From Dictyostelium discoideum (taxonomy: Eukaryota), in NCBI GenBank assembly GCA_000004695.1, contig CM000154.2, positions 3,584,001 to 3,648,000 on the forward strand: a stretch of 64,000 bases of DNA, written 5' to 3'. Positions 4,988-62,805 of this stretch are shown one piece after another; within the stretch, counting starts at the first letter, position 1; the number at the start of each line of letters is the position of its first letter. The position numbers and the translations under genes were made by a program. The notes below the pieces were generated by a model. It worked only from the letters and a program-made list of their open reading frames with translations, made no database searches and had not been told where the DNA came from.

Positions 4988-7900
4988 TTAATTTTTATTC
5001 ATTTCAGCCATTTTTCTATTCACAGAATCTACGAATTTCTTTTGTTTGTTCTTTTTAATGATTATATAAATAACACCAATAATTATTACAGCAGCGAAAG
5101 CGATTGAACCAACAATAATACCAGCTAATTGAGCAGTTGTTAAACCAGAATTACTTTTTGTACAAACTGAGTTATCTTCATCAGAGGCTGATTTGCTATC
5201 GATAAGCACTGAGAAATCTGGATCAACTATTATTGAGTTTCTATAATTTGGAATTGTAATACCAATAAATGATTGTAATGATGATGATGAACTATCAATT
5301 ACATTTAATGATGAATCTAATAAAACATTACTTATACTTTTAACAGTATTATCAATAATAGCACGTTTAATGAATCTACCATAAAGTGAATGATTTTCAA
5401 TTTGAATCTTTAAATAATTTGAATCATCACCTGTTGATGTATTACCAAATTGATTTGATGTGCAAATATCATTTGAGTTTGTTGTTAATGATGCTTCCAT
5501 TACTAATTGAAGTTGATTTAATGAACTTTTAAATTGATATTCTGTAATTTCAATTGTATATTTAATACTAGATGGATTCATTGTTAAATTTTGATTTGCG
5601 AATTGAATTGGTGTACTTTGATTAAACCATTCTAAAGTTGCTGTTATATTTGTATTTGATACTGTTGTAAAGTACTGATTTTTAAATTCGTTAATTGGTG
5701 TATATATCCATTGATCGAATTTATAATTATTTACTTCTTTATTATTAAAATCTAATTCTCTTAATGATACTAATGATATTAATGATTTAAATATCATTTT
5801 TTGAGATTCTTCACTATTTGTTTCTGATGATTGACCATTATTATCTGTTGGTATTTCAACATCTGGTTTTGTTGTATTAATTGATGGTTGTGGTACAATA
5901 ATAATTTGAGAAGTACAAGTTACTCCAATCCATGGTGAATAACAAATACAACCTGTTGATGAACAATAACCTTGATTTTTACCACCACATTCTGGATTAC
6001 CTAGACATTTTTGTGGTGGATTGGTTGGAATTGGTGTTATTGTTGGTATTGGTGTTGTGGTTGGTATTGGTGTTGGAGTTGGTATTATAGTAGAATTAAA
6101 ATAAACTGGATTAACAATAAATTCATTTGATATGAAACCATCAATTGTTAAAGCTTTAATATAGAATGGGCTCTTAGTATTTTTAATTCTTCCCACTCTA
6201 ATTGCTGATGATCCATGAATTAACATTAAACTTGCTGAATTTGGCGTCAAACTACTATCGCTGTAAACAAAATCAATTCTGGAAACTTTTGAAAAACCTC
6301 TACCATATATAACCAATTCACCATTATCATCTGAATAATATCGATCTGTTGATTTGATTACTGGTTGGTTAATTGTAAATGTTGTATTAATATAATAGTT
6401 TGAGAGTGGTACTCTTTGAATATCATCACTTGAATAACCATAATAATAACCACCATTATTTACAATACCATATACTGAAAATATTAAAGCATTTGGGAAA
6501 CCAAAACCCAATGGTAATTCAGTTGCACAGGAATAAGAAACATTTGTTATATTATACGATACTAATTTTGATTTACATTCTACCAATCCATTAAATAATG
6601 AAGTTATATAAATTATTGGTAATTGATCGATTTTAATAATCGGTACACCACTATCAATTGAAAAATCAAATGAAATGGTTCTATTGGTCGCACCTACATC
6701 AATGGTTGTTGCTGATGTTGTAAATGATAATAATGTTGGTTTTATATTTTCTATTACTTGTAATATTGAACATGTAAATGGTAAAACTGTAATACCAATA
6801 CCTCTTTCTAAGAAATTAATAAATGGATTAATTATTGAAGCAGTAAGTAATGAAGGTGTATATAAATTAAATCTTGAAGCTATTTTATTTGTATCAAACA
6901 ATATAACTCTAACGATTCTATATTCTTGTGATATACATGGTTGAGTAATATTAATTAAAATTTGATATTGGCAATTGAATTTATCACCAATTACATCATC
7001 GATTGTAAAATTGAAATGATAAGTTGAACTATCAATTGAACCCATTACTTTAATATAACCACTTTCAAACCCATTTAAATCATCTGTAATATTAAATTTC
7101 CAACCAATTGTACCTGTTGTTGAAATTACTAAACCATTTCCAATTTTTTCAAAAGAACTAAAAATTGGACCTTGATTGTCAAGTTCTATAATTTATAAAA
7201 AAAGAAATTAGTTTTTTTTTTTTTATGATTATTTAATTTTTTCATTCAAATAAATAATTACCAGTCTTATCTACAAAGAGTTCATTAACTATATCAGTAC
7301 TATAAAATCCTGATTCTGGTGAATGTTCAATCATATATTGAATATTTCCAAACATATTATTCTTTGGTAATATGAATTTACATTCAAATATTCCTGTGCT
7401 GGCATTGTAAATGAATGGATTTCTATATAACATATTGGCAACATCAGTCATATCTCTTTCTATTGGAAATGATATTATATCCAATAAAACAAGTGCCATT
7501 GTTTTATATGGTGGAATATCGCTTGAATTTACATACAAAATATTATAAGAATCTTCCTCTAAGCTTAAATTATTCTTTAAAAATCTAATATTATTGTTTT
7601 GAAAATTTGAAATATTTAATTCTAAATTATTATTTTAAAATAAAGGAAAGTATTCATTAGTTAAAGTAAAATTATTTTATTTAATAAAAAAAAAAAATCA
7701 AAAAATCAATATTTAATATAATACATACTATAACTTATTTCTTGTGGTAATTGGAATATAACTAATGGATCTATTGAAACTATATCACCTGGATTATAAA
7801 TAGAACTATAACCATATAAATCAAACATTATAACATATTTTACACCATGAAAACCTGTAATTAATTCAAATGTACCATTGTAAATTGTGCCACTAACTAA

Positions 7901-8750
7901 AGTGTCAATACTGACATATAATTGTTCTGTAGCCATAAAATTTCTAATTCCATTAACACTTTCGATTGTTAACCTTAATATATATTTTTGACTTGAAACT
8001 CTTGTGAATTGATATGATAATAATTTGGGAGGTGAATTAGATTGATCAAGAGTCAATGGCGAAAATTGAACACTAAACTCACCTCCATCAGTGATGCCAA
8101 AACTATAATAATCAGATTTTGAATATTCCAAAAGTTGAACTAATGAAACTTTATGTGTATAATAATTATTATTACCTGAATAAAACCCATATGGCCAACC
8201 TCTAATTTCACTACTAAAATAACCATATGTAAAATCAGTAAACTGGTATGGCTCAGTTACATTGATTGTTACAGAATATACTGGAATTGGATTAATATAT
8301 AAAGTTTCACAACTATTTGTAGTTGAGTAGATTTTTGGTAAAATTATATCTATATATATATATATATTTATTTTAAAAAAATAAAAATTAATATTATTAG
8401 AAATTAGAAAAAAAAAAAAAAAAAAAAGAAAATTAATACAAACCTTGAATATTTACTGATATACTTGAATTATTAATCGAAAATCCATCTTCATTAATAA
8501 AAGTGGAATTTCCATTAACAACAAAACCAATAAATGTCATATTACCCTTTTTTCCTTTTAATGGGAGAGTGTATTTTTCACCAGAATTAGTTCGAATTAA
8601 TTGATATGGTCTCATAATGTTTGTGTTTAATATTGATTGGAATACTGGACCACAAAAATAACTAAATTGTGTGAAATTAAGTCCTGGTGATAATATATTT
8701 GGTGGATAAAATGTATCTATATGACTTGTCGCTAAATCTTGTTCGTCAAC

Positions 8751-8800
<50 letters not shown>

Positions 8801-9673
8801 ATTAATAATTATTATTAAATTTAAATAATATAAATAATGATATTAAAATGATATTGTTACATTGAGAGAAATATGATCCAATACTAATAGGAAATAACCT
8901 ATTGTTACTAAATTTTAAATTAAAGTTTATATCTTGAGATAAATTTTGTAAAGCACCTAAACTCAACTGTATTACATAATTATAAATTGGATCACCTGAA
9001 TGGAGGATGTTGACACCGGAAACATAATCTGTATATATTTCTATAGGAAAATGTGGTTTTATTCCAGATATTTTGAGGTAGTAATAATAAGATGAAGCCA
9101 TATGAAAAGGTTTTGTTTCACTTATTACAAAAAGATCATCAATATTTAAATCTTTAAAAAAATAAAAATAAAAATAAAAAAAAAATTTATTATTAATATG
9201 TATTATTTTATAATTATTATTGTTATTATTATTATTATTATTATTATAAATATATACATATTATTTTAAATAATAAAATAAAATATCTTACCACTACATG
9301 TTGTCATAAATTGATATGTATGATTATTATTATCGTTTGTTGTAAATGTTAATTCTTGATAATAAATTCCATATTCTAAACTTCCATATGAAATAAGATT
9401 ATACAAATATTTATCATTGGTTTGAAATTTTTGATTAAGTTTAAAGTTTGTATTATTAGTTGATGCACTTGTTATGGAAACACCTTTAGCTTCTATTTGA
9501 ATATTATATGAATTTTGGTTGCAATATCTACTATCTGATGAATATGGAGTTCGAGAGAAAATTGGATTTACCACTGATGCTAATAAGGTTGTTTCTGGTG
9601 TTATTGGTGTAAATTGAGAATTATTAACTCTTAAAAAAAAAATTAATAAAAACAAAATTATTAATATTTTCAT
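4988..9673 (-). CDS. Tgr-like type I membrane glycoprotein, paralog 2 (complete; ~6 exons)
   Basis: ATG at 9673 (MKILIILFLLIFFLRVNNSQ signal peptide), donor G|GTAAGA at 9291 (phase 1). Exon ORF pieces lie at ~9101-8802, 8615-8433, 8131-7706 and 7538-7242. The terminal exon ~7190-4988 (685-aa ORF) carries an IPT/TIG-like motif (PVIKSTDRYYSDDNGELVIYGRGFS), a PTPTPIPTTTPIPT linker, an EGF-like module (CLGNPECGGKNQGYCSSTGCICYSPWIGVTC), a TM (AGIIVGSIAFAAVIIIGVIYIII) and a short basic tail. The stop codon is included at 4988. Confidence 0.7.
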
Positions 9674-21965: not shown

Positions 21966-23078
21966 TCAATAACCTATAATTTTTACATTTTTAGGAACAA
22001 AAGATTCAATTAATTTTTTACAACTTTTCAAAATATAGACATTGTTTAATGTATTAGGAATTGAACCAATCATCAAATCATGTTTTATACCACCAAAAAG
22101 TAACTCTTTAACACTTTCTGGTATTATACCTTTGGTTAATTTTTGATTGAATCCATCACATAAAGTAAGAGTTTTTACAGTATTAGGAATTGAATCAATT
22201 ATTAATTCTTGTTTTATATTACCTATTAACAACTCTTTAACACCTTCTGGTATTATACCTTTGGTTAATTTTTGATTGAATCCATCACATAAAGAAACAG
22301 TTGTTACAGTATTAGGAATTGAATCAATTATTAATTCTTGTTTTATATCACCCAAAACCAACACTTTAACACTTTCTGGTATTATACCTTTGGTTAATTT
22401 TTGATTGAATCCATTACATAAAGTAACAGTTGTTACAGTATTAGGAATTGAATCAATATTTAATTCTTGTTTTATATCACCTATATGTAACTCTTTAATA
22501 CCCACTGGTATTATACCTTTGGTTAATTTTTGATTGAATCCATTAAGAAGCATAACATTGTTTGGTAATTTTTTTACTTTTGATAAGATGTCACAATTGT
22601 CTTTGAATGCTAAACTTTCGAAATCTCCAGACAATATAGATGATTCATCATTCTCTGAATATATAAAAAAATCGTGATTCCATACTAAAAACAAAGAATT
22701 AGTTTTTTTTTTTTTTTTTTTTTTTTAGACTTTTTTATTTGGGTCTAACTTACTGTTGATGAATTTATTTTCATTGATTGAGTTATTTAAATTATTATTA
22801 TTATTATTATTATCAACAAAAGAGTATATTGATTTAAAACTATTTTTAATATTATTAATTGTGTGATTATCGAATTTTAAGATTTGATTATTATATTCTT
22901 TTAGTTTATTAAAATTATTGATATTATTATTATTATTTAATATTAATAATGATTGTTGATATTGTTTAATTAATTCAATAGTATATGTATCAATTTGATA
23001 GTCATCATCATCATCATTGTTGTCATTGTCTTGTTGATTATAAATTTGTGAAAAATGATTTAATTTATCAAAAATTGA

Positions 23079-23137
<59 letters not shown>

Positions 23138-23140
23138 TAC

Positions 23141-23171
<31 letters not shown>

Positions 23172-23651
23172 GTTTAAGATTATTGAAACTATTTTATCAT
23201 CATTGTCGATTGAAGAAGTTATAATTGTATTCACTAATATATTTTTATCTAAGTTTGTTGATAGTTGTCTTTCAATATCGAATTCAACTAATGAAAGTAT
23301 ATTGTGAATTTTTTTAAATTCATTTTTTAACAAATTATTATTATTATCATATTGTGATTGAATTTGTTTGAAAGTATCATTTGATTCTTTTAATAATATT
23401 TGATCATTTTCTTTTCTTTCAATTAATTTTGGATAAACGTTATTTTTAAAATCATTAATCAATGAATGAATATTTGATGCTGATGATTCTAATAAATCAG
23501 TTTTATGACCATGATGTTCACCTTTACGAGAAATACAAAGACTACAACATGGCATAAATTTACAATCCAAACATAAAAATTCTAAATTTTTATTTGAATG
23601 AAGTGTACATTTATTTTGATTATTTGTAATTATATCTTCACTTTCTATCAT
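21966..23651 (-). CDS. B-box zinc finger + coiled-coil + FNIP-repeat protein (intact copy A; 2 exons, 4 FNIP units of 43 aa)
   Basis: Exon 1 is 23651-22754: [52 protein letters not shown]... (C/H-rich B-box), followed by a coiled-coil and poly-N. The donor is CAACA|GTAAGT (phase 1). The intron is 22753-22685 and ends TTTTTAG. Exon 2 is 22684-21966 with four [29 protein letters not shown] units, the Dictyostelium FNIP repeat. The stop is included at 21966. Confidence 0.75.
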
Positions 23652-24160: not shown

Positions 24161-24414
24161 ACTTGCAACATTGGGAACCAATGTTCAAGTTATCGATAAA
24201 GGTCAAATAGTAGAGAAAGAGAATCAAACTAAGTTTATTATTATTCAAAGATAGACCAATTCGATTACAAGTGGTACCATTACTTTATAGTGGTGTTTTT
24301 TTGGTGTATTCCCTCAACTACTTTGTAAAGAATGGATTGGTTATCGCTGTATGGTAGTTATATCGGTGGTGCTTCACTTGGGTAAAGGCAAACAAGCTGC
24401 AATGAATGTAAGTA

Positions 24415-24503
<89 letters not shown>
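24415..24503. repeat. (AAT)n microsatellite, ~29 units
   Basis: Perfect trinucleotide run seen directly in the sequence. Confidence 0.9.
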
Positions 24504-24504
<1 letters not shown>

Positions 24505-24910
24505 TAATAAATAATTATTTAAATAAATTAATAAATAAAAAAATAAAAAAGTAAATAAATAAATAAATAGTCCCTTTATTTTTGGAAATAATTGGTTTTT
24601 TTTTTTTTTTTTTTTTAGCGATGAAACTTTTTTTTTTTTCTTATGTTTTTTGGTCATTTAAACTACTATTATTTTGTTTATTAATTGTTGGAATAAATTT
24701 AACATAGGAAAAAACCTCGACACTCTAGAAATTTATTTATTTATTTATATATTTATTTATTATTATTTTTATTTGATTATTTACATTCTCTTGAAACTTA
24801 TTTAATTGTATCACGACAAGTCATTTCCAAACATTAAATAAAAAAAAAATAAAAAAAAAAAAAATTATAAACTCAAAAATTGGATTGGATAATACAAATT
24901 TTTTTCTTTT

Positions 24911-24935
24911 TATTATTATTATTATTATTATTATA

Positions 24936-25020
<85 letters not shown>
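24911..25020. repeat. (ATT)n microsatellite, ~36 units
   Basis: Perfect trinucleotide run with one ATA interruption. It causes three spurious overlapping ORFs in the track. Confidence 0.9.
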
Positions 25021-25021
<1 letters not shown>

Positions 25022-25149
25022 CATCTTTTTTTTTTATTCCCTTTGGGACTTTTTTCACTATCATGGGTATACCTATAGGGAAAAAAAGGGCTACAACAAT
25101 TCTCACAAAATAATTATGGTGTAGTAAAAATACAAAGATTTTTTTTATT

Positions 25150-25910
25150 TTTTTTTTATTTGTGCACTATTTTGACATTTTCTGGAACAAAGGGCCAATT
25201 AATTTTTTACAACTTTTATAAATATTGACATTGTTTAATGTATTGGGAATTGAATCAATCATCAAATCTTGTTTTATATCACCTATGTGCAAATCTTTAA
25301 TGTTATCAGGTATTGTAGCTGGTGTTAATTTTTGATTGAATCCATCACATAACCAAACAGTTGTTACAGTATTAGGAATTGAATCAATTATTAATTCTTG
25401 TTATATATCACCTATAAACAACTCTTTAACACCTTCTGGTATTATACCTTTGGTTAATTTTTGATTGAATCCATTTTGTTGATAGTTGTTTTTCAATATC
25501 CAATTCAACAAATGAAAGTATATTGTGAATTTTTTTAAATTCATTTTTTAATAAACTATTACAATTATCATTTTGTGATTGAATTTGTTTGAAAGTATCA
25601 TTTGATTGTTTTAATAATATTTGATCATTTTCTTTCAATTAATTTTGGATAAATATTATCTTTAAAATCATTAATTAATGAATATTTGATGCTGATGATT
25701 CTAATAAATCAGTTTTATGACCATGATGTTCACCTTTACGAGAAATACAAAGACTACAACATGGCATAAAACTGATTTATGCCATGTTGTAGTCTTTGTA
25801 TTTCTCCATGGAATAAATTTACAATCCAAACATAAAAATTCTAAATTTTTATTTGGATGTAGTGTACATTCATTTTTATTATTTGTAATTATATCTTCAC
25901 TTTCTATCAT
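25150..25910 (-). pseudogene. B-box/FNIP gene copy B: pseudogene with internal deletion and inverted duplication
   Basis: N-terminal B-box codons are present ([32 protein letters not shown]...) but interrupted at 25740-25806 by an inverted duplication. The coiled-coil segment ([23 protein letters not shown]...) is fused directly at ~25480 to decayed FNIP units (25160-25470). The exon-1 tail, the intron and the exon-2 head are missing, and the frame is broken. Confidence 0.65.
25740..25806. repeat. perfect 31-bp inverted repeat (hairpin) with 5-nt loop inside pseudogene B
   Basis: The left arm GAGAAATACAAAGACTACAACATGGCATAAA (25740-25770) is the exact reverse complement of 25776-25806; the spacer is ACTGA. 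The intact paralog (23525-23560) has only the left-arm sequence continuing ...CATAAATTTACAATCC. Confidence 0.9.
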
Positions 25911-26141
25911 TTTATGTGCTGATTTTGTTTGTTTTTAAAAAAAAAAAAAGAAAATATTTTGGACACCGAAATTTTTTTTTTCCTTTTTTTACTTTTTTAT
26001 TTTTTTTTTATTTAGATAATTAATTCAAAAATCATTCAATTTTTAAATCCAACAACAATAATAATAATAATAATATCATCACAAAATTTTTATTTTTTTT
26101 TTTTTTTATTTTTTTTTTATTTTTTTTTTTTTTTATTTTTT

Positions 26142-26997
26142 TTATATGTTTACTATTTTGACATTTTCAGGAACGAAGGGATTAATTATTTTTTTACAAC
26201 TTTTATAAATATGGACATTGCTTAATGTGTTAGGAATTGAATCAATAATTAAATCTTGTTTTATATCACCTATATGCAAATCTTTAATGGTATCAGGTAT
26301 TATACCTTTGGTTAGTTTTTGATTGAATCCATCACATAAAGTAACAGTTGTTACAGTATTAGGAATTGAACCGATTATTAATTCTTGTTTTATATCACCC
26401 AAATACAACACTTTAACACCTTCTGGTATAGTACCTTTGGTTAATTTTTGATTGAATCCATCCCATAAAGTAACAGCTGTTACAGTATTAGGAATTGAAT
26501 CAATTATTAATTCTTGTTTTATATTACCTAAACGTAACACTTTAACACTTTCTGGTATTATATCTTTGGTTAATTTTTGATTGAATCCATCCAAAAAGCC
26601 AACATTTGTTACAGTATTAGGAATTGAATCAATAATTAATTCTTGTTTTATATCACCTATACACAACTCTTNNNNNNNNNNNNNNNNNNNNNNNNNNNNN
26701 NNNNNNNNNNNNNNNNNNNNNNNNNNNNNNNNNNNNNNNNNNNNNNNNNNNNNNNNNNNNNNNNNNNNNNNTATCATTTTGTGATTGAATTTGTTTGAAA
26801 GTATCATTTGATTCTTTTAACAATATTTGATCATTTTCTTTTCTTTCAATTAATTTTAGATAAATATTTTTATTAAAATCATTAATTAATGAAAGAATAT
26901 TTGATTCTGATGATTCTAATGAATCAGTTTTATGACCATGATGTTCACCCTTACTGGAAATACAAAGACTGCAACACGGAATTAATTTACACTCCAA
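26142..26997 (-). pseudogene. B-box/FNIP gene copy C: 5'-truncated and interrupted by a scaffold gap (pseudogene or assembly casualty)
   Basis: FNIP units lie at 26142-26670. The B-box/coiled-coil part (26772-26997) starts mid-domain (..[24 protein letters not shown]..). The first ~35 codons ([15 protein letters not shown]) are absent, and the conserved upstream motif abuts at 27008. Confidence 0.5.
26672..26771. other. assembly gap, exactly 100 N
   Basis: The N run lies inside the FNIP/coiled-coil region of copy C. This is a conventional fixed-size scaffold gap placed in a tandem-repeat array. Confidence 0.95.
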
Positions 26998-27056
26998 ACA
27001 TAAAATTATGATAACTTAAATTTTTAAAAAAAAAAAAAGATAATCAAAATTCAAAT

Positions 27057-28126: not shown

Positions 28127-30136
28127 GATTATGAAAATCAAGAAAATAATAAAATAAAAAAATTACGAATGTGTCAATCAGAAAGTAGAACGTCAGTTCA
28201 TCCATTATCATTAAAACAAATTATAAATCTTATAATTGTTTTTGATAATGTTTCTGCAATGAAAGTTTTAGTTGGACAAGGTTATTATATTAGAGATGAC
28301 GAACAAATTTTTAAAGATTTTATAAAATCATTTGAAATTGGTTCATTAAAATTAGCAGAATTTATTTATAATAATTATTTAAATTTAGAATTTACAAAAG
28401 AAAAAGAAAAGATTCAATCACTTTGGAATTTAGCTATTTTTACTGAAACAAACTTTATAGATATTCAAAAAGAAGATGGATTAGAATTATTTTTAAATAA
28501 ATTTTATTTAATGAAGAAATTAAAAAGCAACGACAACAACAATAATAATAATAAAATAATTTCAAATTGTGATAGTGAAATAATATTTAAAAATATTCAA
28601 TCAATATTAAGAATGAATATTTTTAAAATTAAATTTAATATTTTAATTGGTTATGCAGAAGTGATATCAATTTTAAATGATCAATTTGATTTTCAAAATA
28701 ATATAATTAAAAATTATAAAGCAAATACAAATAATAAAGATATTAATGAAAGTTTAGAAGAAGATAAAAATGAAATTTCAATTCTATCAATTAAAGAAAT
28801 TAATGAATTAAAATTAAAACTAATTGAAAAAAACATTATAAATGAAATTAAACCATTGAATCAAAATGATTGGAATTCATTAAAGCAAGATTTAGAAGGG
28901 CTATATAAAATGTTAATAATATTTACAGGTTTCTCAATTCCTGAAAATTATTTCATTTTTAAATTAAAATTTAATAAAATATTAAATTTTAAATCAATGA
29001 ATTTCATAACCAATAATCCAAATGATTACTTTTTATATAATTTAAAAGATGGTGGTAAACAGTTGATTTATAACCCAGTATTTTCAAATTATAAAAATGA
29101 AAAGATTCAAATAAAATCATTTTTAGAAAATTGTCTTTTAGATTTAAATTTAAGAGATGATAAATATCAATCAAATAATTTATTTTCATTAATTATTAGA
29201 GATAATCAAAATGATGATGATCATGAAATCATTGAATATGGTATAAATAATCTTTTATTTAAAGGTGAATTACCAATTGATTATAATTCATTTAAAAATA
29301 TAAAATCAATTAAAACATTTGATTTTATTTTTAAATCAATTCAATTAAAATATCCAAACAATCTTTCAACTAATTTATTATCCTCAATTATTGATAATTT
29401 CCAACTTGCCACTCATTTCAAAGAAAACTATCCAAATCAATATAAATCATCATTAAAAACAATTAAATTCAGTGATATTAGTGAATTTAAAAATTTTACT
29501 CAACTCAAATTTATAATTCACAATTGGTTAGATTTTAAAAATATAATCATAAAAAGTAAAGGTAAAAATTGGGCCCAAGATATTGTAAGGTATAAAAAAG
29601 AATTTAATATAAATGAATTTAAAACTTTTGTTTCATGTTTTGATAATCTTCAAAATACCGACACTAGAAATAATAACGATGTCAAAGAAGAAGATGATGA
29701 TGATAATGATGATAGTGATAATAAATCACTTTATTATGCAAATGATACAGAAGAATCATTTTATGTTTACCAAAATAGACCAGAACATTTAAAATCTGGT
29801 ATATGTGAACCTATCAGAATTGAATTCATGAACACCATTAATTACATTAATGGTAAGTTTGATTTCTCTTCTTTAAATTTTGAAAAAGAATCTAAATATG
29901 GTGACTTATTTAAACATATCGTTCAAAGATGTGATTTTAATGCTATTGATCAATGTATTTCAATTTTAGGTCAACCAAGCCAAGAGGAAATTGATCTGGA
30001 TTATAAAAATTTAGATGTCATCATACATATTCTATCTCGAGAAGCTTTTGAAAATGGAAATACTATTGTTTTCGATTATTTACAAAATAAAAGTAGTAAG
30101 GGCTTCATTGAAATAAATGATTGTTATCCTTGGTAA
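27605..30136 (+). CDS. large N-rich hypothetical protein (~843 aa), paralog of the 17688-20966 product
   Basis: The likely start is the internal ATG at 27605 in AAAATGG context (MDRNKNEILFWKIFRNSYLNKIIFEKIKCKC...). The track ORF starts upstream at 27509. The shared N-terminal motif marks it as a paralog of the minus-strand gene at 17.7-21 kb. It has poly-N and acidic tracts, and the stop is at 30134-30136. Confidence 0.6.
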
Positions 30137-30261
30137 ATAAAAGGTTTTATTTAAATATTAAAATAAAAAAAATAAAAAAAAAGTTTTTTATATTTGATTA
30201 CGTTTACTAATCATTTAGTAAATGTTTAAAGTTTTAGTTTATTATTTCTAAATATTTAGAT

Positions 30262-30345
30262 TATTATTATTATTTATTATTTATTATTTATTATTATTAT
30301 TATTTATTATTTATTATTTATTATTTATTATTTATTATTATTATT
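30262..30345. repeat. (ATTTATT)n heptanucleotide microsatellite
   Basis: Same unit as at 47302-47378. It lies immediately 3' of the stop of the zinc-finger gene. Confidence 0.8.
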
Positions 30346-30347
30346 TT

Positions 30348-32093
30348 TTATATTATTTGTTTATCAGATTGATCTTTACCACTGGTAATACCATATTTAA
30401 AACATCTTTTACAAAGTACACCATTGGTTAACATCATCCAAGGTCTTTGGCATTCTAAACATTGATGATTATTTGGTTGATATTTTTGAGTTCTACTTCT
30501 TGATAAACAAATTGAACAAAATTCTAAATTGACAGATTTTGTTTTTCTAGCTTTACCACTAATACACCATTTGGTGCAAATATTTGGCTCGGAGCCATCG
30601 GTATGAACTAATGCATAAGGTCTAACTTGTTGACAAGCTGAGCATTCTTGATTTTTTTCGGTGGCAATTGCACAATATGGTACACACCTGTTGGAAGGTA
30701 TTGAAGATGATGATAGTAAAATCGTATTGGCAGATGCTGATAGTAGAGTTGAAGATTTTTTTGATTTTTTAGTTGGAGTAGATGGTGCAGATGATTGAAG
30801 TGGATTTGATAAATTAGTATTATTATTATTATTGATTGATGATATAATTGGTGAAGATGATGATGAAGATGGTGATGTAATCGGATTATTAAATGCATTA
30901 GTTGCTAAATTTACTTGTTGTAAATAAATTGATGATGGTGGTTTAATTTGTATTGGTAAACTAGAAATGGTTGGAATGAATTGATTTTGAAATGGATTAC
31001 TATGAATTATTTGATGTTGTTGTTGTTGTTGTTGTAATGGTTGTTGAAGGAATTGTGGTTGTTGAATTGGTAATGGACTTTGTAATGGTGTTGAAATTGG
31101 TGAACTTACTACTGATGATGTTTCTGAATCATTTTCAATTTTAATTTCTTTTTTTTTTTTTTTTTTTTTAGAAAATAAAAAAATAAAAAATTAATAAATT
31201 ATAAAATAAAACTAATAAAATATAAATTTATAATATATACTTTTTGAATCTCTATCATCAATTTCATGTTCTAATTTTAATTGAGTATTATGATTTGATA
31301 AATCATCAAAGTTTGTATTTGTTAAATCTAAGCTTGTATCAACTAACATACTATCCAATTTGAAATTATTATCTTCATCATCTAAATCATCGTCATCATT
31401 ATTTAAAAAGTTTTTAGTGATTTGAATTTCAAGTTGTTCTTGAGTTACTGCTGTAACTGTAGCTAAATCTTTTGCATCTAACAATTGCTTAGATTGGTCT
31501 GCTGCTGCTCCTGTTGCCCCTCCTCCTAATAGGGTGCTATCATGTTCTTGTGGTGTTGAAGCTGATGATGTTGTCAATGAAGTTTTAATTGATGGCGATA
31601 ATGGTAATGATTGTGGTGGTGGTTGTGTTATTTGTAATTGTGGTTGTGATTGTGATTGTGATTGTGATTGTGATTGTGATTGTGATTGTGATTGTGATAA
31701 GTTTACATTATATACATTAAATTTGGGAATAATGATATGAATTGGATCCATATCATTTAGTAATTCAAATACATTACAAGTTTCGGATAAATCGTTATTT
31801 AAACGATCTTGTAATTTACAACGTTCAAAATTTTGTGGATGTAATGGATTTGAAGTTGCTATATTAGTTTTAAATAAACCATTGAATTCATTAAAAATTC
31901 TAATCTTTAAATTTTTAATTACAATTTGATTTGGTGAGAAAATAATAAATTCTAAACCACCAGATACAACTCTTAATCTATAAACAGAGTTTATTGATGA
32001 TGGTGTTGATATTGATGATGTTGGTGTTGTTGAAGAAGAAGAGGGAGAAGAATAAATATTATTATTATTATAATTATTATTATTATTATTATA

Positions 32094-32183
<90 letters not shown>

Positions 32184-32508
32184 GTTGGTGGTGGCGGTCG
32201 TTATTGGTGAAGATGTAGATTTTATTGGTGTTATTATGCTTGTGTTTAATAAATTACCACTTGTAAATGCATTAAATGGTGCTTGCATTAAACTAAAATC
32301 ATTAAATTCATTTGTAAAATCAATGGTTACATGGTTTAATTGTTGTCTTTGTTGTTGTAAAATTGTTGGTGTTATTAAAAAAGGTGATGGAAATGGTACA
32401 GTTTGATTCTCTTTTTCAGATTTATCAATATTATTATTATTATTTGTAGTGTTACTATTATTTACAGGGGTTTCTATAGAATTATTTTTATTATTGTCAT
32501 TATTTTTA

Positions 32509-32550
<42 letters not shown>

Positions 32551-32921
32551 GTATTATCATTGGTAATGGTACTATTTGAGCTTGTTAAATTATCATTTGG
32601 TGAAGTGATTGTATTTGATAAATCACTTGAAAGATAAATATCATCATTTTCATTGTTTGTTGAGTGTGTGATAGATGAATTTTGATCATTTATATTATTA
32701 CATTCATTTTTTTTATTTTCATTTTTATTTTGATCATTTTCATTATTGTCATTATTGATACTACTATTTTCGCAATTTTGTTGTGATTCTTGAGTATCAT
32801 CTAATAATAATTTACCATCCTCACTATTTGCAACTAAAATATGTTCATCATGAAGTTGATGAATATCTTGATCATTTACAATATTACATGTAATATCAGA
32901 AAAAACAAAATGATCAATCAT
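30348..32921 (-). CDS. low-complexity nuclear-type protein with C-terminal FCS/MYM-like Cys-rich zinc-finger module (2 exons)
   Basis: Exon 1 is 32921-31241 (569-aa ORF minus its tail: poly-N, poly-NNY and an (SQ)11 tract from (TCACAA)n at ~31625-31700). The donor is A|GTATAT at 31240. The intron is 31240-31148 and ends in A21+G. Exon 2 is 31147-30348 and joins in phase (split codon AAA). It encodes ...SIPSNRCVPYCAIATEKNQECSACQQVRPYALVHTDGSEPNICTKWCISGKARKTKSVNLEFCSICLSRSRTQKYQPNNHQCLECQRPWMMLTNGVLCKRCFKYG...*. The EFCSICLSR element resembles the FCSxxC core of FCS/MYM/FLZ-type fingers. ORF 30608-30898 in the track is a spurious antisense-frame read of this exon. Confidence 0.55.
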
Positions 32922-33119
32922 ATTTATTTTATTTTATTTTATTTTATTTTATTTATTATAAATTACTAATTATTTTTTAATGATGTTTAATTCCAAGTGG
33001 AAAAATAAATAAAAAAAATAAAAATATAAAAAATAAAAAAACAAATAAAATAAAAGAGAAAAGAAAAAAAATTAAATAATAATAATTTTGTTTTTGTTTT
33101 TGTTTTTGTTTTTGTTTTT

Positions 33120-33153
<34 letters not shown>

Positions 33154-33249
33154 TGATTACTGATATTATTGTTATTATTGTGTTTTTATATTACAACTGT
33201 TATTTTATTATTTATTCAATTATATATATTTATAAGGTTTATTTATAGT

Positions 33250-33320
33250 ACAAAATATGAGTGTGTGTGTGTTTGTGTTTGTGTATGTGTGGTTGGAGTA
33301 ATTATGGTGGTAGTGGGTTG
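33250..33320. promoter_or_regulatory. G/T-rich (G-box-like) island upstream of the minus-strand zinc-finger gene
   Basis: GAGTGTGTGTGTGTTTGTGTTTGTGTATGTGTGGTTGGAG...GGTGGTAGTGGGTTG lies ~330 bp 5' of ATG 32921. It is a GC/GT island in an otherwise >85% AT intergenic region. Confidence 0.35.
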
Positions 33321-33951
33321 AAATTGAATATTAGTGAAGAGTGTGTTGTTAAATAAAAATTTTTTTTAAAAAAAAAAAACTTTATATTTTTTTTTTTTTA
33401 TTTATTTAATTTATTTATTTATTTATTTATTTTTTTATTTTATTTTTTTTATTTTTGGGGGGTGTGTAGTGTTTGGTTATGGGATGGAAAATTTTAAAAA
33501 AAAGTTGGAATTGAAATATCTAAATTTGAACAGTTTTTATTAAACAAATTTTTTTGTGATTTATTTTTATTTTTATTTTTTTTTATTTTTTTTATTTTTT
33601 TTTTTATTATTATTTACAATATTGAATAGAAATACAAAAAAGATATGAAGGTGATAAAGGTGTGATCCAAACAGTGTTATAGCTGTGCGGAGGTGTGCAG
33701 ATGAAAAGTGTTTTGTTTTGGAGTTTATGACCAAAAAACACAACCAAAGCAGATGCTAAAAAAAGGTAATGAAAAAAATAAAAAATAAAAAAAATAAAAA
33801 AAATAAAAAAAATAAAAAAATAAAAAAAAAAAAAAAATAAAAATAAAAAAATAAAAATAAAAAAAAAAAATGATCAAGGGGCACTAAAAAAAATAAAAAA
33901 AAAAAAAAAATTTTTATAATAATCTAAGTCTGCACAAAAAAAAATAAAAAA

Positions 33952-34028
<77 letters not shown>

Positions 34029-34977: not shown

Positions 34978-36743
34978 CCAATAAAATAAATAATGAAAAC
35001 TTACCAATAAATCTGTTAATTCTTTTACAGAAGTTGATTTCTTAATATACTTGCAGCATGCTTTGAAATCCAAAACATTCCAAAGACCATCAGAAGCGAC
35101 AATGACATAATCACCGGGGTTCAATGATTCACTTTGAAATTCTGGTGTACTACTAACTCCATATTTACTTAAAACTACATGACCTAATGCTCTACTCATA
35201 TTTAATGCTAATCTTTGTTTCATAATGTCATCATTACTATAATCATTTTTATTTGGTATAACTCTATAACATCCCTATATATATAAATTTATATAATTAA
35301 TAATTATTAATTATTATATTTATTTTTAATGTTTTTAATTATTAATTTAAAATATACATACACATCTAAAAACTACTCTACCACCAGTTGTAATTATTCT
35401 TTTTTTTTCGAGTGGATTTTCAGGTTTATGATCATTTGATAGTTGAATTGGAGTATAATCTTTACCATTTGCAGATTGTTTAAATAAAACTGCCATTGAA
35501 TCACCTACCCAACCAACACGAATATGGTTATCCTTAATTATTGCCAATGTTGCGGTTGTACCCCAATCACCAGTAATTTTACCTTTTTCAAGCAATGCTT
35601 CATTTGCTTCTAAAAATGAACTCGTTATACATTTATCTATAAAAAAAAAAAAAAAAAAAAAATTAAAAAAACAAAATAAAACATTTAAAAAAAAAATATA
35701 TATTAATAAAAATTTAATAATTATTTATTTTAATTTATATTTTACTCACCATAAAAATCATCAGATTTTTTATTATCATTACTATTTACAATTTCTTTTT
35801 CTACAATTTTTGATATAATATCTCTGGTTGTAGCAGATGCATCCATACCCTCATCACCATGGCCATCAAATACACCTATTACCCTTATCCCTTCAGATTT
35901 AAAATTTTTTTGAAAAAAAGTATCTTGATTTTCATCTCTTGTACCAAGTACTGTATTACCACTATAATTTAAATCTAAAATTTCTTCTTCTTCTTTTTGT
36001 TGTTGTTGTTGTTCCTCTTCTTTACTATGTTTTTCCTCTTCTTTTTCATTTTCTTCTAATTTCACGTCTTTTTCCTCATCTTTATTATTGTTGGTACTAG
36101 TTGTTGTTGTTGTAGTTGTAGTGGTTGTAGGGGTTGGGGTTGTGGTTGTAGGGGTTGGTGAATCCAGTGGTGGTGGATTAAGAACAAATTTAGACATTGA
36201 TTGAATGTCCATTGGTTGTTTCTCTATATTGTTAGGATTATCATTTAAAATATTGGAATCTTCCAAATCTTTGAAAACTACATCTTTTGGATGTTTTTGT
36301 TGTTTTTTATGTTTTTGATGTTTTTGTTGTTTTTTTTGTTTTTTATTATTAAAATCTTTAAGTGTTAATTCTGGTACATTTAATAATGTATCAATATTTT
36401 CATTACTATTGTTATTATTATTTGAGTCCATGACTGTATTTTTGTTACTATTTTCATTGTTGGTGTTTGTTGTTTTAAATTCATCAAGACTTGGTAATTT
36501 ATAATTACTATCGTCTTCATCAACATTATCAAGTTGTAATCTTTCTCTTTTGTTTTTAGGTGGTGATGTTGATTTTGTTGGTGTTGTAGTTGTAGACGAA
36601 GATGGTGAAGAGGATGATGTTGTGGTTGTGGTTGTTGTTGTTGTTGTTTTTTTAACAGGACTCTTTTTAATAATAAATTTTAAGTAGTTATCTGATATCC
36701 ATGATATTTCATAACCACTATCATTTGCAACTGCAGTATCCAT
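34710..36743 (-). CDS. PP2C-family Ser/Thr protein phosphatase with long PT/acidic N-terminal extension (4 exons)
   Basis: Exon 1 is 36743-35750 (..RVIGVFDGHGDEGMD.. metal-binding motif; donor G|GTGAGT, phase 1). Exon 2 is 35636-35362 (GTTATLAIIKDNHIRVGWVGDSMAVL...DHKPENPLEKKRIITTGG; alternative donor at 35376). Exon 3 is 35274-35005 (..RLALNMSRALGH..VIVASDGLWNV..; donor TTG|GTAAGT). Exon 4 is 34790-34710 (LSVVESKCQSFKIPCDNVTICCYKHS*). All junctions are phase-consistent. The long poly-T/A run at 34921-34975 is intronic. Confidence 0.7.
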
Positions 36744-36769
36744 TTTTTAATTTGTGATGTGTTTCAAGT

Positions 36770-36995
36770 TGTTGTTGTTGTTTTGGTTTGTTATTGTTTT
36801 TGGTTTTGTAGTTAATTTTATTTTATGTGTAGGTGGGTGAGTTTGGGTTTGTGTATAATTTTTTTAATTTTTTTTTTTAATTGTTTTTTTTATTTTTTTT
36901 TTTATTTATTTTATTAATTTAATAAGTGGGTTGTATTATTTATATATATAAATGGTGGATTTGTGTGTGTGTGTGTGTGTGTGTTTGTGTGTTGT
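36770..36995. promoter_or_regulatory. G/T-rich island incl. (TG)13 microsatellite upstream of PP2C gene
   Basis: GTTGTTGTTGTTGTTTTGGTTTG...GTGTAGGTGGGTGAGTTTGGGTTTGTGT...(TG)13 at 36962-36992. It lies directly 5' of ATG 36743 on the coding strand's upstream side. Confidence 0.35.
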
Positions 36996-37660
36996 GAATG
37001 TGTAAATGAATGCAAAAGATAAAATTTAAAACTTTGGGTTTTAAAATTTTTTTTTATTTTTTTTATTTTTTTATTTTTTTTTCTTTTTTTTATACAAAAT
37101 TAAATTATTATTATTTTTATTATTACTTCTTGATACCTAATTTTAATTTATTCGTGTTTTGTTTGTAAGGGTACAAGGCAGAAAAAAAAAAAAAATTTAT
37201 AAAATATTGCTTAATGTTTGTTTATCTGTATAATATTATTATATAAACACGGTGGAGTTTTGAAGATAGGGGGTATATATTTTAAATATTTAAAACAACC
37301 ACACGTATTTCACAATTTTAAAATTAAAAAAAAAAAAATTAAAAAAATAATTTAAATAAAATAAATAAATGAAATAAAAAAAAGTTGGTGATATTTCAAT
37401 ATATATATTATAACTAAATTTGAAATTATAAAAAAAAAAAAAAAATTATTTTTTTTTTTTTAGAAATTAAAAAAAAAAAAAAAACAAAAAAATTAAAAAA
37501 TTAATTGTTTTTTCCTCAAATGAGAACCTATTTAGATTTGATTCCCAAGTTTATTTTAAATTTTTATTAATAAAATAAAAAATTTAAAAAAAAATTTAAA
37601 ATCAAAAAAATCCCAAATTTAAAATTAAGAATTAATAAATGAAAAGATGAATAAAAAAAA

Positions 37661-37692
<32 letters not shown>

Positions 37693-38050
37693 AATTTTTT
37701 AACAAATAAACAAATAAATAAATAAATAAATAAAAAAAATTATAAAAAAAAAATAAAAAAAAAGTTTTGATTAAGTTCAAAATAGTAAAATAATGATAAT
37801 AATTATTATTATTACTATTTTGTTTGATTGAGTGTTATATAACTCAAATGTGGAAACCATAAACAAAAATAGCTACCCATGTTTTATTAGAAAATCAGCT
37901 CCTTTCAATAATTATTTTTATTTTTTTTATTTTTTTTTTGATTTTTTAAAAAAAGTTTTTTTTATTTTTTTTTTTTAAAATTTTTTTTTTTTATTTTTTA
38001 TTTTTTTTTATATTTTCCACCCCATTTTTAAACAAATATTTTATAATATA

Positions 38051-58811: not shown

Positions 58812-60272
58812 TTATATGTTTACTATTTTGACATTTACAGGGACGAAAGAATAAATTAATTTTTTACAACTTTTATAAATATAGACATTATTTAATGTAT
58901 TAGGAATTGAATCAATAATTAATTCTTGTTTTATATCACCTATATGTAACTCTTTAACCCATTCTGGTATTATACCTTTGGTTAATTTTTGATTGAATCC
59001 ATCTAATAACCTAACAGTTGTTACAGTATTAGGAATTGAATCGATTATTAGTTCTTGTTTTATATCATCTATATACAACTCTTTAACACTTTCTGGTATT
59101 ATACCTTTGGTTAATTTTTGATTGAATCCATCTAATAACCTAACAGTTGTTACAGTATTAGGAATTGAATCGATTATTAATTCTTGTTTTATATCACCTA
59201 AACATAACCCTTTAACCCATTCTGGTATTATACCTTTGGTTAATTTTTGATTGAATCCATCACATAAAATAACAGTTGTTACAGTATTAGGAATTGAATC
59301 AATTATTAATTCTTGTTTTATATCTCTTATATACAACTCTTTAACACCTTCTGGTATTATACCTTTGGTTAATTTTTGATTGAATCCATCACATAACCTA
59401 ACAGTTGTTACAGTATTAGGAATTGAATCAATAATTAATTCTTGTTTTAAATTACCTATATACAACTCTTTAACACCTTCTGGTATTATACCTTTGGTTA
59501 ATTTTTGATTGAATCCATCACATAAAGTAATAGTTGTTACAGTATTAGGAATTGAATCAATAATTAGTTCTTGTTTTATATTACCTATATGTAACTCTTT
59601 AACACTTTCTGGTATAATACCTTTGGTTAATTTTTGATTGAATCCATCTAATAACCTAACACGTGTTACAGTATTAGGAATTGAATCAATTATTAATTCT
59701 TGTTTTATATCACCTATATACAACACTTTAACACCTTCTGGTATTATACCTTTGGTTAATTTTTGATTGAATCCATCACATAAAATAACAGTTGTTAGAG
59801 TACTAGGAATTGAATCAATTATTAATTCTTGTTTTATATCACCTAAACGTAACTCTTTAACACCTTCTGGTATTATACCTTTGGTTAATTTTTGATTGAA
59901 TCCATACCATAAACCAACGGTTGTTACAGTATTAGGAATTGAATCAATTATTAATTCTTGTTTTATATCACCTATATACAACACTTTAACACCTTCTGGT
60001 ATTATACCTTTGGTTAATTTTTGATTGAATCCACTTAGAAGCAAAACGTTGTTTGGTAATTTCTTTAGTTTTGATAAAATGTTACAATTGTCTTTGAATG
60101 CTAAACTTTCAAAATCATCAGTCAAAAAGGATGATTCATCACTCTCTGAATATATATAAAAATTGTGATTCAATACTAAAAACAAAGAATTAGTATTTTT
60201 TGTTTTATTAGACTTATTAATTTGAGTCTAACTTACTTTTAATGAATTCATTTTTATTATTTGAGTTATTTA

Positions 60273-60329
<57 letters not shown>

Positions 60330-61107
60330 TATAATCAATAGCATCATTAGGAATATCACCAAAAGAGTATATCGATTTAAAACTATTTTTAATATTATTA
60401 ATTGTTTGATTATCGAATTTTAAGATTTGATTATTATATTCTTTTAGTTTTGTTAAATTATTGATATTATTGCTATTTTTTAATATTAATAATGAGTTTT
60501 GATATTGTTTAATTAATTCAATAGTATCTGTATCAATTTGATAGCAATCATCATTGTCGTCATTATCTTGTTGATTATTAATTTGTGTAAAATAATTTAA
60601 TTTATCAATAATTGAATTATTATTATTATTTAAAATTGTTGAAATGATTTTATTATCATTGTTGATTGAAGAAGTTATAATTGTATTTATCAATATATTT
60701 TGATCTAAGTTTGTTGATAGTTGTTTTTCGATATCCAATTCAACAAATGAAAGTATATTGTGAATTTGTTTAAATTCATTTTTTAATAAATTATTATTAT
60801 CATCATTTTGTGATTGAATTTCTTTGAAAGTTTCATTTGATTCTTTTAATAATATTTGATCATTTTCTTTTCTTTCAATTAATTTTGGATAGATATTATC
60901 TTTAAAATCATTAATTAATGAATGAATATTTGATGCTGATGATTCTAATGAATCAGTTTTATGACCATGATGTTCACCTTTACGAGACGTACAAAGACTG
61001 CAACATGGCATAAATTTACAATCCAAACATAAAAATTCTAAATTTTTATTTGGATGAAGTGTACACCTATTTTGATTATTTATAATTATATCTTCACTTT
61101 CTTTCAT
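58812..61107 (-). CDS. B-box zinc finger + coiled-coil + FNIP-repeat protein (intact copy D; 2 exons, 9 FNIP units of 43 aa)
   Basis: Exon 1 is 61107-60237 ([52 protein letters not shown]..; donor AAAA|GTAAGT, phase 1). The intron is 60236-60176 and ends TTTTTAG. Exon 2 is 60175-58812 with nine near-identical 129-bp units encoding [43 protein letters not shown]. The splice phase is identical to copy A. Confidence 0.75.
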
Positions 61108-61344
61108 TTTGTGTGCTATTTTGTTTTGAGTTTAAAAAAAAAAAAAAAAAATTTGATAATTTAATTTTAAAAAAAAAAAAAATAAAAAAAAATAAAAATA
61201 AAAATAGGTGCCAAAAAAAAGTTTGTGTTATTTTGATAACTTAAAATTTTAAAAAAAAAAAATAAAAATAAAAATAAAAAAAATTCTTTTTTGTAATATC
61301 ACCACTTCATATCCTTAAAATTCTTATGTGGCATTAATTATTTA

Positions 61345-62805
<1,461 letters not shown>

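What the first reader, a model, noticed from the sequence alone, without database searches (positions are those of the whole stretch)
25740..25806. Perfect 31-bp hairpin (inverted duplication) inserted exactly where pseudogene B loses collinearity with its intact paralog
GAGAAATACAAAGACTACAACATGGCATAAA | ACTGA | TTTATGCCATGTTGTAGTCTTTGTATTTCTC. The left arm is native coding sequence, since the intact paralog at 23525-23560 matches it. The right arm is its exact reverse complement and is followed by CATGGAAT before collinearity resumes. A perfect, zero-mismatch palindrome next to a deletion junction is the footprint of a fold-back / template-switch repair event (hairpin-capped break or replication slippage), and it is recent enough not to have accumulated any mutations.
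Basis: seen in the sequence. Interest (0 to 1): 0.5.

Follow-up and report, generated by a model that had tools for sequence, protein, structure and literature searches.

The report
Template-switch hairpin scar in a pseudogene
A decaying copy of a Dictyostelium zinc-finger gene carries a 47-base insertion, copied backwards from its own neighbouring sequence, that forms a perfect 31-bp hairpin; it is a clear example of a known mutation type (polymerase template switching), not a functional element.

Summary
Arms 25740-25770 and 25776-25806 are 31 nt and 100% complementary, with the loop ACTGA. It is the only non-low-complexity perfect inverted repeat in the window.

It lies in pseudogene B of a tandem B-box/FNIP-repeat gene family in a Dictyostelium of the discoideum complex. 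Six other paralogs lack it (four in the window, two in the syntenic locus of D. cf. discoideum). It is therefore a derived, pure 47-bp insertion.

There is no deletion at the site. B's deletion junction is 265 bp away.

46 of the 47 inserted bases are templated locally:
- 10 nt, including the loop, are the reverse complement of 25704-25713, primed on a 6-nt microhomology.
- 26 nt are the reverse complement of 25740-25765, primed on a 5-6-nt microhomology.
- 11 nt re-copy 25760-25770 with one mismatch.
- The last junction has no microhomology.

This is the signature of serial fold-back or template-switch synthesis, either at a replication fork or during snap-back break repair. The "deletion junction", "hairpin-capped break" and "must be recent" parts do not.

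I could not reach independent reads, so an assembly or read artefact remains possible (about 10%). This is a known kind of mutation, and its interest is low to moderate.

The parts
25740..25770 (.). Left arm of the hairpin. It is native sequence, the antisense of B-box codons, and is identical to paralog A 23528-23558.
25771..25775 (.). Loop ACTGA. Together with its flanks (25765-25780, CATAAAACTGATTTAT) it is the exact reverse complement of 25704-25719.
   Evidence: pair I15; chance about 7e-4
25776..25806 (.). Right arm, an exact reverse complement of the left arm. It is absent from all other paralogs.
25771..25817 (.). The 47-bp insertion relative to paralogs A, C, D and E and to X2 and X3 of D. 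cf. discoideum. Its placement is ambiguous by a few bases; 25760-25806 is an equivalent description. It shifts the reading frame by +2.
25807..25817 (.). CATGGAATAAA, an 11-nt re-copy of 25760-25770 (CATGGCATAAA) with one mismatch at 25812 (C to A; ATG to ATT in gene sense). The junction 25806|25807 has no microhomology.
   Evidence: alignment
25704..25719 (.). ATAAATCAGTTTTATG, a native mini-hairpin (ATAAA-TCAGT-TTTAT). It is the inferred template for the new hairpin's tip. TTTATG (25714-25719) is the 6-nt microhomology for the first switch.
   Evidence: also present in paralog A at 23492
25139..25961 (-). Pseudogene B of the B-box/FNIP family. It has its start codon at 25910, the hairpin insertion, B-specific 4- and 5-nt slippage deletions, and a 968-bp internal deletion with its junction at 25474|25475.
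21966..23651 (-). Intact paralog A. It encodes zf-B_box plus four FNIP repeats and has one intron at about 22695-22753. It serves as the reference for the ancestral state.
26672..26771 (.). 100-N assembly gap inside paralog C, 866 bp from the hairpin. This is a contig boundary and matters for the artefact question.

Best explanation
The hairpin is a mutational scar: a single complex, locally templated 47-bp insertion in an already or subsequently dead gene copy. A free DNA 3' end switched templates several times in succession.

Read on the + strand, the steps are:
1. Synthesis reached ...GGCATAAA (25770).
2. The 3' end CATAAA mispaired with TTTATG at 25714-25719 on a strand of the same sense. 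That strand was either the nascent strand folded back on itself or the sister or lagging template. The end was extended 10 nt (ACTGATTTAT).
3. It dissociated and re-paired through (A)TTTAT with ATAAA(T) at 25766-25770. It then copied 26 nt back to 25740, which completed a perfect 31-bp inverted repeat.
4. It rejoined the original template 11 nt behind the departure point. This step used no microhomology and left one miscopied or later-mutated base.

Shown by the sequence: the derived state, the templates, the microhomologies and the junctions.

Inferred: the order and strand of synthesis (the mirror-image order on the - strand fits equally well), and the setting. One junction lacks microhomology and 11 nt are duplicated. 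For that reason I slightly favour snap-back synthesis at a broken end followed by end joining (SD-MMEJ-like) over a purely replicative fork template switch. The enzymes are unknown.

The hairpin most likely has no function. It splits the B-box zinc finger and shifts the reading frame.
For: - The insertion is present only in B among seven paralogs, including two from a sister species, so it is derived.
- A and B are collinear on both sides.
- 46 of 47 inserted bases are explained by three local templates, with 6-nt and 5-6-nt overlaps at two of the three switches.
- The chance that a random loop matches as ACTGA does is about 7e-4, or about 2% if homopolymer loops are counted.
- B-specific variants lie on both sides of the hairpin: the 4-nt deletion and 25676 on the left, 25856 and 25860 on the right. 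The hairpin is therefore embedded in B and is not an A/B chimera.
- Template switching is known to create perfect hairpins de novo in one event (PMC5453318, PMC8794818, 10.1101/2023.04.19.537475).
- Snap-back priming on short inverted repeats gives inverted templated insertions at repaired breaks (PMC2943611).
- Dictyostelium keeps classical NHEJ (PMC6635534) and has PolQ-related, polymerase-only genes of unexplored function (PMC7515707).
Against: - The evidence comes from one assembly only, with no read-level or second-strain confirmation.
- A contig boundary lies 866 bp away.
- One junction (25806|25807) has no microhomology, which is awkward for any purely polymerase-primed model.
- No other template-switch-like insertion was found among 37 indels of 10 nt or more in about 16 kb of alignment to D. 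cf. discoideum. The process is therefore not visibly frequent here.
- The arm length equals 31, a common assembler k-mer size. However, a de Bruijn graph cannot invent the k-mers that span the loop or the junction (my own reasoning).
Confidence: 0.8

Rival explanations
1. It is a sequencing, cloning or assembly artefact. A chimeric fold-back molecule made in vitro (for example by end-repair or polymerase extension of a snapped-back 3' end, or by PCR or MDA template switching) entered the consensus of a poorly covered, repeat-rich region.
For: - There is a 100-N gap 866 bp away, inside the next paralog.
- The region consists of tandem paralogs 85-95% identical with internal 129-bp repeats, which is hard to assemble.
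- In vitro fold-back artefacts use the same microhomology chemistry.
- No independent record of any ORF spanning the hairpin was found.
Against: - A simple fold-back chimera would keep reading back into the upstream flank (GTAAAGG...). Here the inverted copy stops after 31 nt and forward sequence resumes with B-specific variants on both sides.
- Single-molecule artefacts do not normally win a consensus.
- A k-mer graph cannot create the novel loop and junction k-mers.
- The missing records are expected in any case. Logan contigs (k=31) must break at a 31-nt inverted repeat and at the stretches of 31 nt or more that B shares with A (my own reasoning).
Confidence: 0.1
2. It is a hairpin-capped break or transposon-excision footprint. 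A covalently closed hairpin formed at a DNA end, as in hAT/RAG-type excision or a capped double-strand break. It was nicked off-centre, leaving a long palindromic (P-nucleotide) addition, and the 11-bp repeat is a target-site duplication.
For: - The palindromic addition starts from native flank sequence.
- An 11-nt imperfect direct repeat brackets the added 36 nt.
- The final junction is blunt, with no microhomology.
Against: - P-additions abut the flank without a spacer. Here there is a 5-nt spacer that is itself templated from 25704-25713.
- An off-centre nick 31 nt from the tip would be unusually far (from my own knowledge).
- There is no transposon remnant and no second copy of such a footprint in the window.
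- An 11-bp target-site duplication matches no Dictyostelium DNA transposon that I know of (from my own knowledge).
Confidence: 0.04
3. The hairpin is, or has become, a functional element: a small-RNA (hpRNA or miRNA-like) precursor maintained by selection. Its arms match the B-box coding sequence of paralog A at 31/31 and of paralog D at 28/31.
For: - It is a perfect 31-bp stem with a 5-nt loop, lying downstream of an apparently retained start codon and 5' flank of B.
- Rfam gives only shape-level, sub-threshold miRNA-precursor matches (best 35.4 bits against a gathering score of 83).
- Hairpins made by template switching can become miRNA genes (10.1101/2023.04.19.537475).
Against: - No known RNA family reaches its threshold.
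- There is no conservation to examine, because this is a single derived copy.
- The host is a multiply disabled pseudogene.
- Perfection of the arms is expected from the creating event and is not evidence of selection.
Confidence: 0.04

Closest known systems
Short template-switch mutations (Ripley's quasipalindrome model, generalised as the four-point model of Löytynoja and Goldman; PMC5453318, PMC8794818)
   Same: - A cluster or insertion in the derived sequence is explained by copying a nearby segment in reverse complement and then returning to the original template.
- A perfect hairpin is created in a single event with no pre-existing long inverted repeat.
- With the + strand as reference, the switch points project as 3 (25740) < 4 (25760) < 1 = 2 (25770).
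   Different: - A single switch leaves the 5-nt loop unexplained. Two consecutive inverted copies from two different templates are needed.
- The return point lies 11 nt behind the departure point and has no microhomology.
- One base in the re-copied stretch differs.
Snap-back SD-MMEJ, the templated insertions of polymerase-theta-type alternative end joining (PMC2943611, PMC4912351, PMC7165422)
   Same: - There are iterative rounds of annealing at 4-6-nt inverted 'primer repeats' within tens of bp of the end.
- Each round gives short synthesis and then dissociation.
- The inserted DNA forms inverted repeats with its flank.
- Apparent blunt final joins occur in that system too.
   Different: - No deletion accompanies the insertion.
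- 11 nt are duplicated instead.
- The final junction shows no synthesised microhomology.
- Dictyostelium has only PolQ-related, polymerase-only genes of untested function (PMC7515707).
Template switching during gene-conversion or BIR repair synthesis in yeast (10.1101/2023.08.09.552703, PMC8421209)
   Same: - A partly copied strand dissociates and re-aligns on another template at microhomology.
- A 132-nt mismatch-free A-B tract surrounds the hairpin. This would fit repair of B from paralog A, 2.2 kb away.
   Different: The mismatch-free tract is also what the slower evolution of the B-box segment would give (A-D divergence there is 4.4%, against about 18% overall). Conversion is therefore not demonstrated.

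Membership tests
Template-switch mutation (four-point model) | The change is derived: it is absent from the reference or ancestral sequence. | tested here: met
   Six paralogs lack the 47 nt: A, C, D and E in the window, and X2 and X3 in L002.
Template-switch mutation (four-point model) | The inserted fragment is the reverse complement of nearby sequence and is long enough not to be chance (14 nt or more in PMC5453318). | tested here: met
   A 31-32-nt exact reverse-complement match to 25740-25770, plus a second 16-nt match to 25704-25719.
Template-switch mutation (four-point model) | The flanking fragments F1 and F3 are collinear with the reference. | tested here: met
   A and B are identical for 85 nt to the left and 43 nt to the right of the insertion.
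Template-switch mutation (four-point model) | One switch and one return explain the whole change. | tested here: not met
   A single inverted fragment leaves ACTGA unexplained. Two inverted fragments are needed, and one base of the re-copy differs.
Template-switch mutation (four-point model) | The variant is real in independent reads or assemblies. | not testable with these tools
   Exact-product look-ups and metagenome scans found nothing, and the control pattern also found nothing.
Classical quasipalindrome correction (Ripley) | A pre-existing near-perfect inverted repeat is converted to a perfect one. | tested here: not met
   The ancestral sequence (paralog A) has only the 8-bp palindrome TAAATTTA at the site and a 5-bp mini-hairpin upstream. 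It has no 31-nt quasipalindrome.
Snap-back SD-MMEJ / polymerase-theta templated insertion | Each templated stretch starts at a short inverted primer repeat near the junction. | tested here: met
   CATAAA/TTTATG (6 nt) and (A)TTTAT/ATAAA(T) (5-6 nt), with the templates within 66 nt.
Snap-back SD-MMEJ / polymerase-theta templated insertion | The final join is made at a microhomology (pre-existing or synthesised), usually with loss of flanking bases. | tested here: not met
   The junction 25806|25807 has 0 nt of overlap. No bases are lost and 11 nt are duplicated.
Snap-back SD-MMEJ / polymerase-theta templated insertion | The event depends on Pol theta. | not testable with these tools
   This needs genetics. 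D. discoideum has PolQ-related polymerase-only genes whose function is unexplored (PMC7515707).
Hairpin-opening (P-nucleotide) or transposon-excision footprint | The palindromic addition abuts the flank with no spacer, and a target-site duplication of the element's characteristic length is present. | tested here: not met
   There is a 5-nt templated spacer and an 11-nt imperfect repeat. There is no element or other copy in the window.
Known structured RNA or miRNA family (Rfam) | The score reaches the family's gathering threshold. | tested here: not met
   The best match is MIR7504 at 35.4 bits against a threshold of 83. All matches are generic hairpin-shape hits.
Foldback or MITE-type mobile element | There are multiple dispersed copies, and the arms are unrelated to the host sequence. 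| tested here: not met
   This is a single copy. Its arms are the host gene's own coding sequence.

The most novel reading that the evidence does not exclude
The template-switch event created, in one step, a perfect 31-bp hairpin inside a still-transcribed pseudogene. Its arms are identical to the B-box coding sequence of the intact neighbour A and near-identical to that of D. If the Dictyostelium Dicer-like enzymes process it, it would be a newborn pseudogene-derived siRNA or miRNA-like locus that regulates its own functional paralogs. That would be a live example of regulatory-RNA birth by template switching outside animals.
Probability: 0.04. Interest if true: 0.6.

Novelty: new member of a known kind. 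Interest (0 to 1): 0.22.

Why it matters
This is a clean example of how one complex replication or repair error can build a perfect long hairpin from unstructured coding sequence. The loop is traceable to a second template, so the order of the polymerase jumps can be read directly from the DNA.

As far as I could find, such events have not been described in dictyostelids (the searches turned up none). The scar therefore shows that microhomology-primed fold-back synthesis operates in this lineage.

Its practical value is mainly as a caution. Aligners and annotators would score this as an unexplained indel or a loss of collinearity. It does not open a new question and does not point to a new system.

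Tried and rejected
1. Independent confirmation through exact-product look-ups. Three ORFs that span or flank the hairpin are not on record. The ORF of paralog A and a neighbouring 1092-aa ORF are not on record either.
   - Only one Logan contig from the same or a near-identical strain was found, at an unrelated gene (L001, SRR26869267).
   - By my own reasoning, k=31 contigs must break at the 31-nt arms and at the stretches shared by A and B, so this route cannot work.
2. Protein homology searches.
   - The full paralog A query was swamped by poly-Asn words, and its best hit was only 57% identical.
   - The 69-aa B ORF found no candidate. The index missed even the L002 gene that shares 13 five-residue words, so negative results from it are weak.
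3. AX4 look-up. The AX4 protein P0004 is not in the gene-position index. I could not establish the exact species. The window is not matched by annotated D. discoideum proteins. Its closest annotated genome is D. cf. discoideum GCA_054859205.1, at about 89% nucleotide identity and syntenic.
4. Metagenome scans for the hairpin centre and for a family-invariant control both gave 0 hits, which is uninformative.
5. An ortholog of B in the sister species. The syntenic interval of L002 holds three copies, none clearly orthologous to B. B is closest to A, so the state had to be polarised with paralogs.
6. Gene conversion from A as the source of the arms. The mismatch-free tract and the G/T difference are suggestive but not significant once the slow evolution of the B-box segment is allowed for.
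7. Microhomology at the last junction. Only a trivial CCATG repeat was found, with no workable priming path.
8. Other template-switch insertions in the window-versus-L002 alignment. None was found among 37 indels of 10 nt or more.
9. tRNA and Rfam searches. No tRNA was found, and there was no RNA-family match above threshold.

Full report
**Context**

The window has about 20% G+C, with long A/T and (AAT)n runs. Its genes identify it as a Dictyostelium.
- The closest annotated genome is D. cf. discoideum GCA_054859205.1. Its contig JBTAPH010000031.1 (locus L002) is syntenic with the window at about 89% nucleotide identity over more than 16 kb.
- None of the window's own proteins was returned from annotated D. 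discoideum genomes.
- Only one public read-set contig matches a window gene: L001 from SRR26869267, 99.88% identical over 2,527 bp.
- I therefore call the source an unidentified member of the discoideum complex.

**The gene family**

The minus strand carries five tandemly organised paralogs of a B-box zinc-finger plus FNIP-repeat gene.
- A (21966-23651) is intact, has one intron, and encodes Pfam zf-B_box plus four FNIP repeats.
- B lies at 25139-25961.
- C (26112-27005) is truncated at its 5' end and is interrupted by a 100-N gap at 26672-26771.
- D (59542-61283) and E (61347-62781) form a second cluster.

B is a pseudogene for several independent reasons:
- the hairpin insertion;
- B-specific 5-nt and 4-nt slippage deletions;
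- a 968-bp internal deletion that fuses the N-terminal region out of frame to a FNIP repeat, with its junction at 25474|25475.

**The observation**

The two arms, 25740-25770 and 25776-25806, are 31 nt long and perfectly complementary, around the loop ACTGA. This is not chance:
- The arm sequence occurs elsewhere only at the homologous positions of A (exact) and D (3 mismatches), against none in shuffles.
- Base composition predicts about 5e-10 such hairpins in the window.
- Every other inverted repeat of comparable size in the window is A/T low complexity.
- The single-strand DNA fold is -34.1 kcal/mol, z = -15.7.

**What it is relative to the paralogs**

I aligned the segment in seven copies: A-E from the window and X2 and X3 from L002. 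Only B carries 47 extra nucleotides, inserted between the codons for Cys-Lys and Phe-Met/Ile-Pro-Cys-Cys of the B-box. Pfam sees only the first half of the B-box in B's 69-codon ORF.

A and B are identical for 85 nt to the left and 43 nt to the right of the insertion, and no native base is missing. The feature is therefore a derived, pure insertion.

**Anatomy of the 47 nucleotides**

I parsed the derived + strand against the reconstructed ancestor.
1. 25765-25780 (CATAAAACTGATTTAT) is the exact reverse complement of 25704-25719. It overlaps the native end CATAAA by 6 nt, so 25771-25780 are new. This stretch contains the whole loop.
2. 25775-25806 is the reverse complement of 25740-25770 plus the next ancestral base. 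It overlaps step 1 by 5-6 nt, so 25781-25806 are new.
3. 25807-25817 (CATGGAATAAA) re-copies 25760-25770 (CATGGCATAAA) with one difference at 25812. After that the native sequence continues.

Thus 46 of the 47 bases are locally templated. Two of the three template changes sit on microhomologies of 5-6 nt. The third (25806|25807) has none.

The loop's origin is statistically solid. With flanks fixed by the arms, a random 5-mer would find any local template about 2% of the time, almost all of that from homopolymers. A complex loop such as ACTGA would do so about 7e-4 of the time. The template is a native mini-hairpin (ATAAA-TCAGT-TTTAT) that A also carries.

**Mechanism**

The sequence directly shows serial copying from alternative templates of opposite polarity, followed by a return to the original template. 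This is the pattern formalised as template-switch mutation, which is known to generate perfect hairpins de novo in one event (PMC5453318, PMC8794818, 10.1101/2023.04.19.537475).

The same geometry describes snap-back synthesis at resected break ends. There, short inverted 'primer repeats' prime rounds of limited synthesis, and apparent blunt joins also occur (PMC2943611).

I cannot tell a fork event from a break-repair event. The junction without microhomology and the 11-nt duplication tip me slightly towards a broken end that was extended by two snap-back rounds and then joined to the other end, with fill-in. Dictyostelium retains classical NHEJ (PMC6635534) and has PolQ-related polymerase-only genes of unknown function (PMC7515707). 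The mirror-image order on the minus strand is equally compatible with the sequence.

The single mismatch at 25812 could be a copying error, a later mutation, or native B sequence. ATT (Ile) is the state in C and X3. If it is native B sequence, the arms would have been copied from an ATG-bearing template such as paralog A. The data do not decide between these.

**Age**

Perfection of the arms is weak evidence for recency. A and B differ at 5.9% of aligned sites. At that rate, arms as old as the A-B split would still be identical with P of about 0.16, and the local 132-nt A-B tract has no mismatch at all.

That tract might mark gene conversion from A during the same repair event. However, the B-box segment also evolves about four times more slowly than the rest of the gene (A-D: 4.4% here against about 18% overall). 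Conversion is therefore not demonstrated.

**Rivals**

*Artefact.* An assembly or read artefact cannot be excluded, because I could not reach reads or a second assembly and a contig boundary lies 866 bp away. Several points argue against it:
- The inverted copy stops after 31 nt and forward B-specific sequence resumes, which a simple fold-back chimera would not do.
- B-specific variants flank both sides of the hairpin.
- A k-mer graph cannot invent the k-mers that span the loop and the junction.

I put this rival at about 10%.

*Hairpin-capped break or excision footprint.* This does not explain the templated 5-nt spacer.

*Functional small-RNA hairpin.* This has no positive support. Rfam gives only sub-threshold, shape-level miRNA hits. 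It is the most novel reading that the evidence does not exclude.

**Frequency**

In about 16 kb of orthologous alignment with D. cf. discoideum, none of the 37 indels of 10 nt or more is an inverted copy of nearby complex sequence. This is a one-off event in the window.

**Verdict**

The template-switch interpretation is supported and can be refined to a two-template, three-junction event. The 'deletion junction', 'hairpin-capped break' and 'recent' elements are not supported. The feature is an ordinary, if unusually legible, member of a known class of complex mutation in a decaying gene copy.

Noticed in passing
window 26672-26771 and 26996-27010: A 100-N assembly gap lies inside paralog C. 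C also lacks about 120-200 bp of its 5' end, including the start codon, compared with paralog A and with its 95%-identical ortholog in D. cf. discoideum (L002 8966-9399).
   Followed up: partly
window 25474|25475, and about 25628 and 25682: Pseudogene B has a 968-bp internal deletion (A 22286-23253 is missing), an out-of-frame fusion of the N-terminal region to a FNIP repeat with 0-1 nt of microhomology. It also has B-specific 5-nt (TTTTC) and 4-nt (AATG) slippage deletions.
   Followed up: yes
window about 62697 (paralog E, 61347-62781): Paralog E has a 1-nt deletion in a T-run within the B-box N-terminal coding region, which shifts the frame. E is either a second pseudogene or carries a homopolymer sequencing error.
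   Followed up: no
L002 4256-9454 (D. cf. discoideum JBTAPH010000031.1): The syntenic interval holds three family copies. One is a FNIP-only fragment that best matches the 3' end of A. The other two are full copies that the public annotation merges into a single 722-aa gene (5148-9272). Copy number and content differ from the window, so this tandem cluster turns over quickly.
   Followed up: partly
tool behaviour: The word-indexed protein search returned neither the L002 722-aa protein nor any window protein, although the L002 protein shares 13 five-residue words with the B query. Negative results from that search are unreliable for these low-complexity Dictyostelium proteins.
   Followed up: partly
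window 25735-25814: Rfam gives several sub-threshold miRNA-precursor matches (best MIR7504, 35.4 bits against a gathering score of 83). These reflect hairpin shape only.
   Followed up: yes
window 24405-24505 and 24905-25022: Two long perfect trinucleotide arrays of opposite polarity, (AAT)n and (TTA)n, each about 100-120 bp, flank a small, relatively GC-rich unique segment between paralogs A and B. A search of the whole window found no tRNA.
   Followed up: no
window 30001-34000 and 36001-38000: These intervals show strong positive GC skew (0.28-0.43) compared with the rest of the window. I did not examine them.
   Followed up: no
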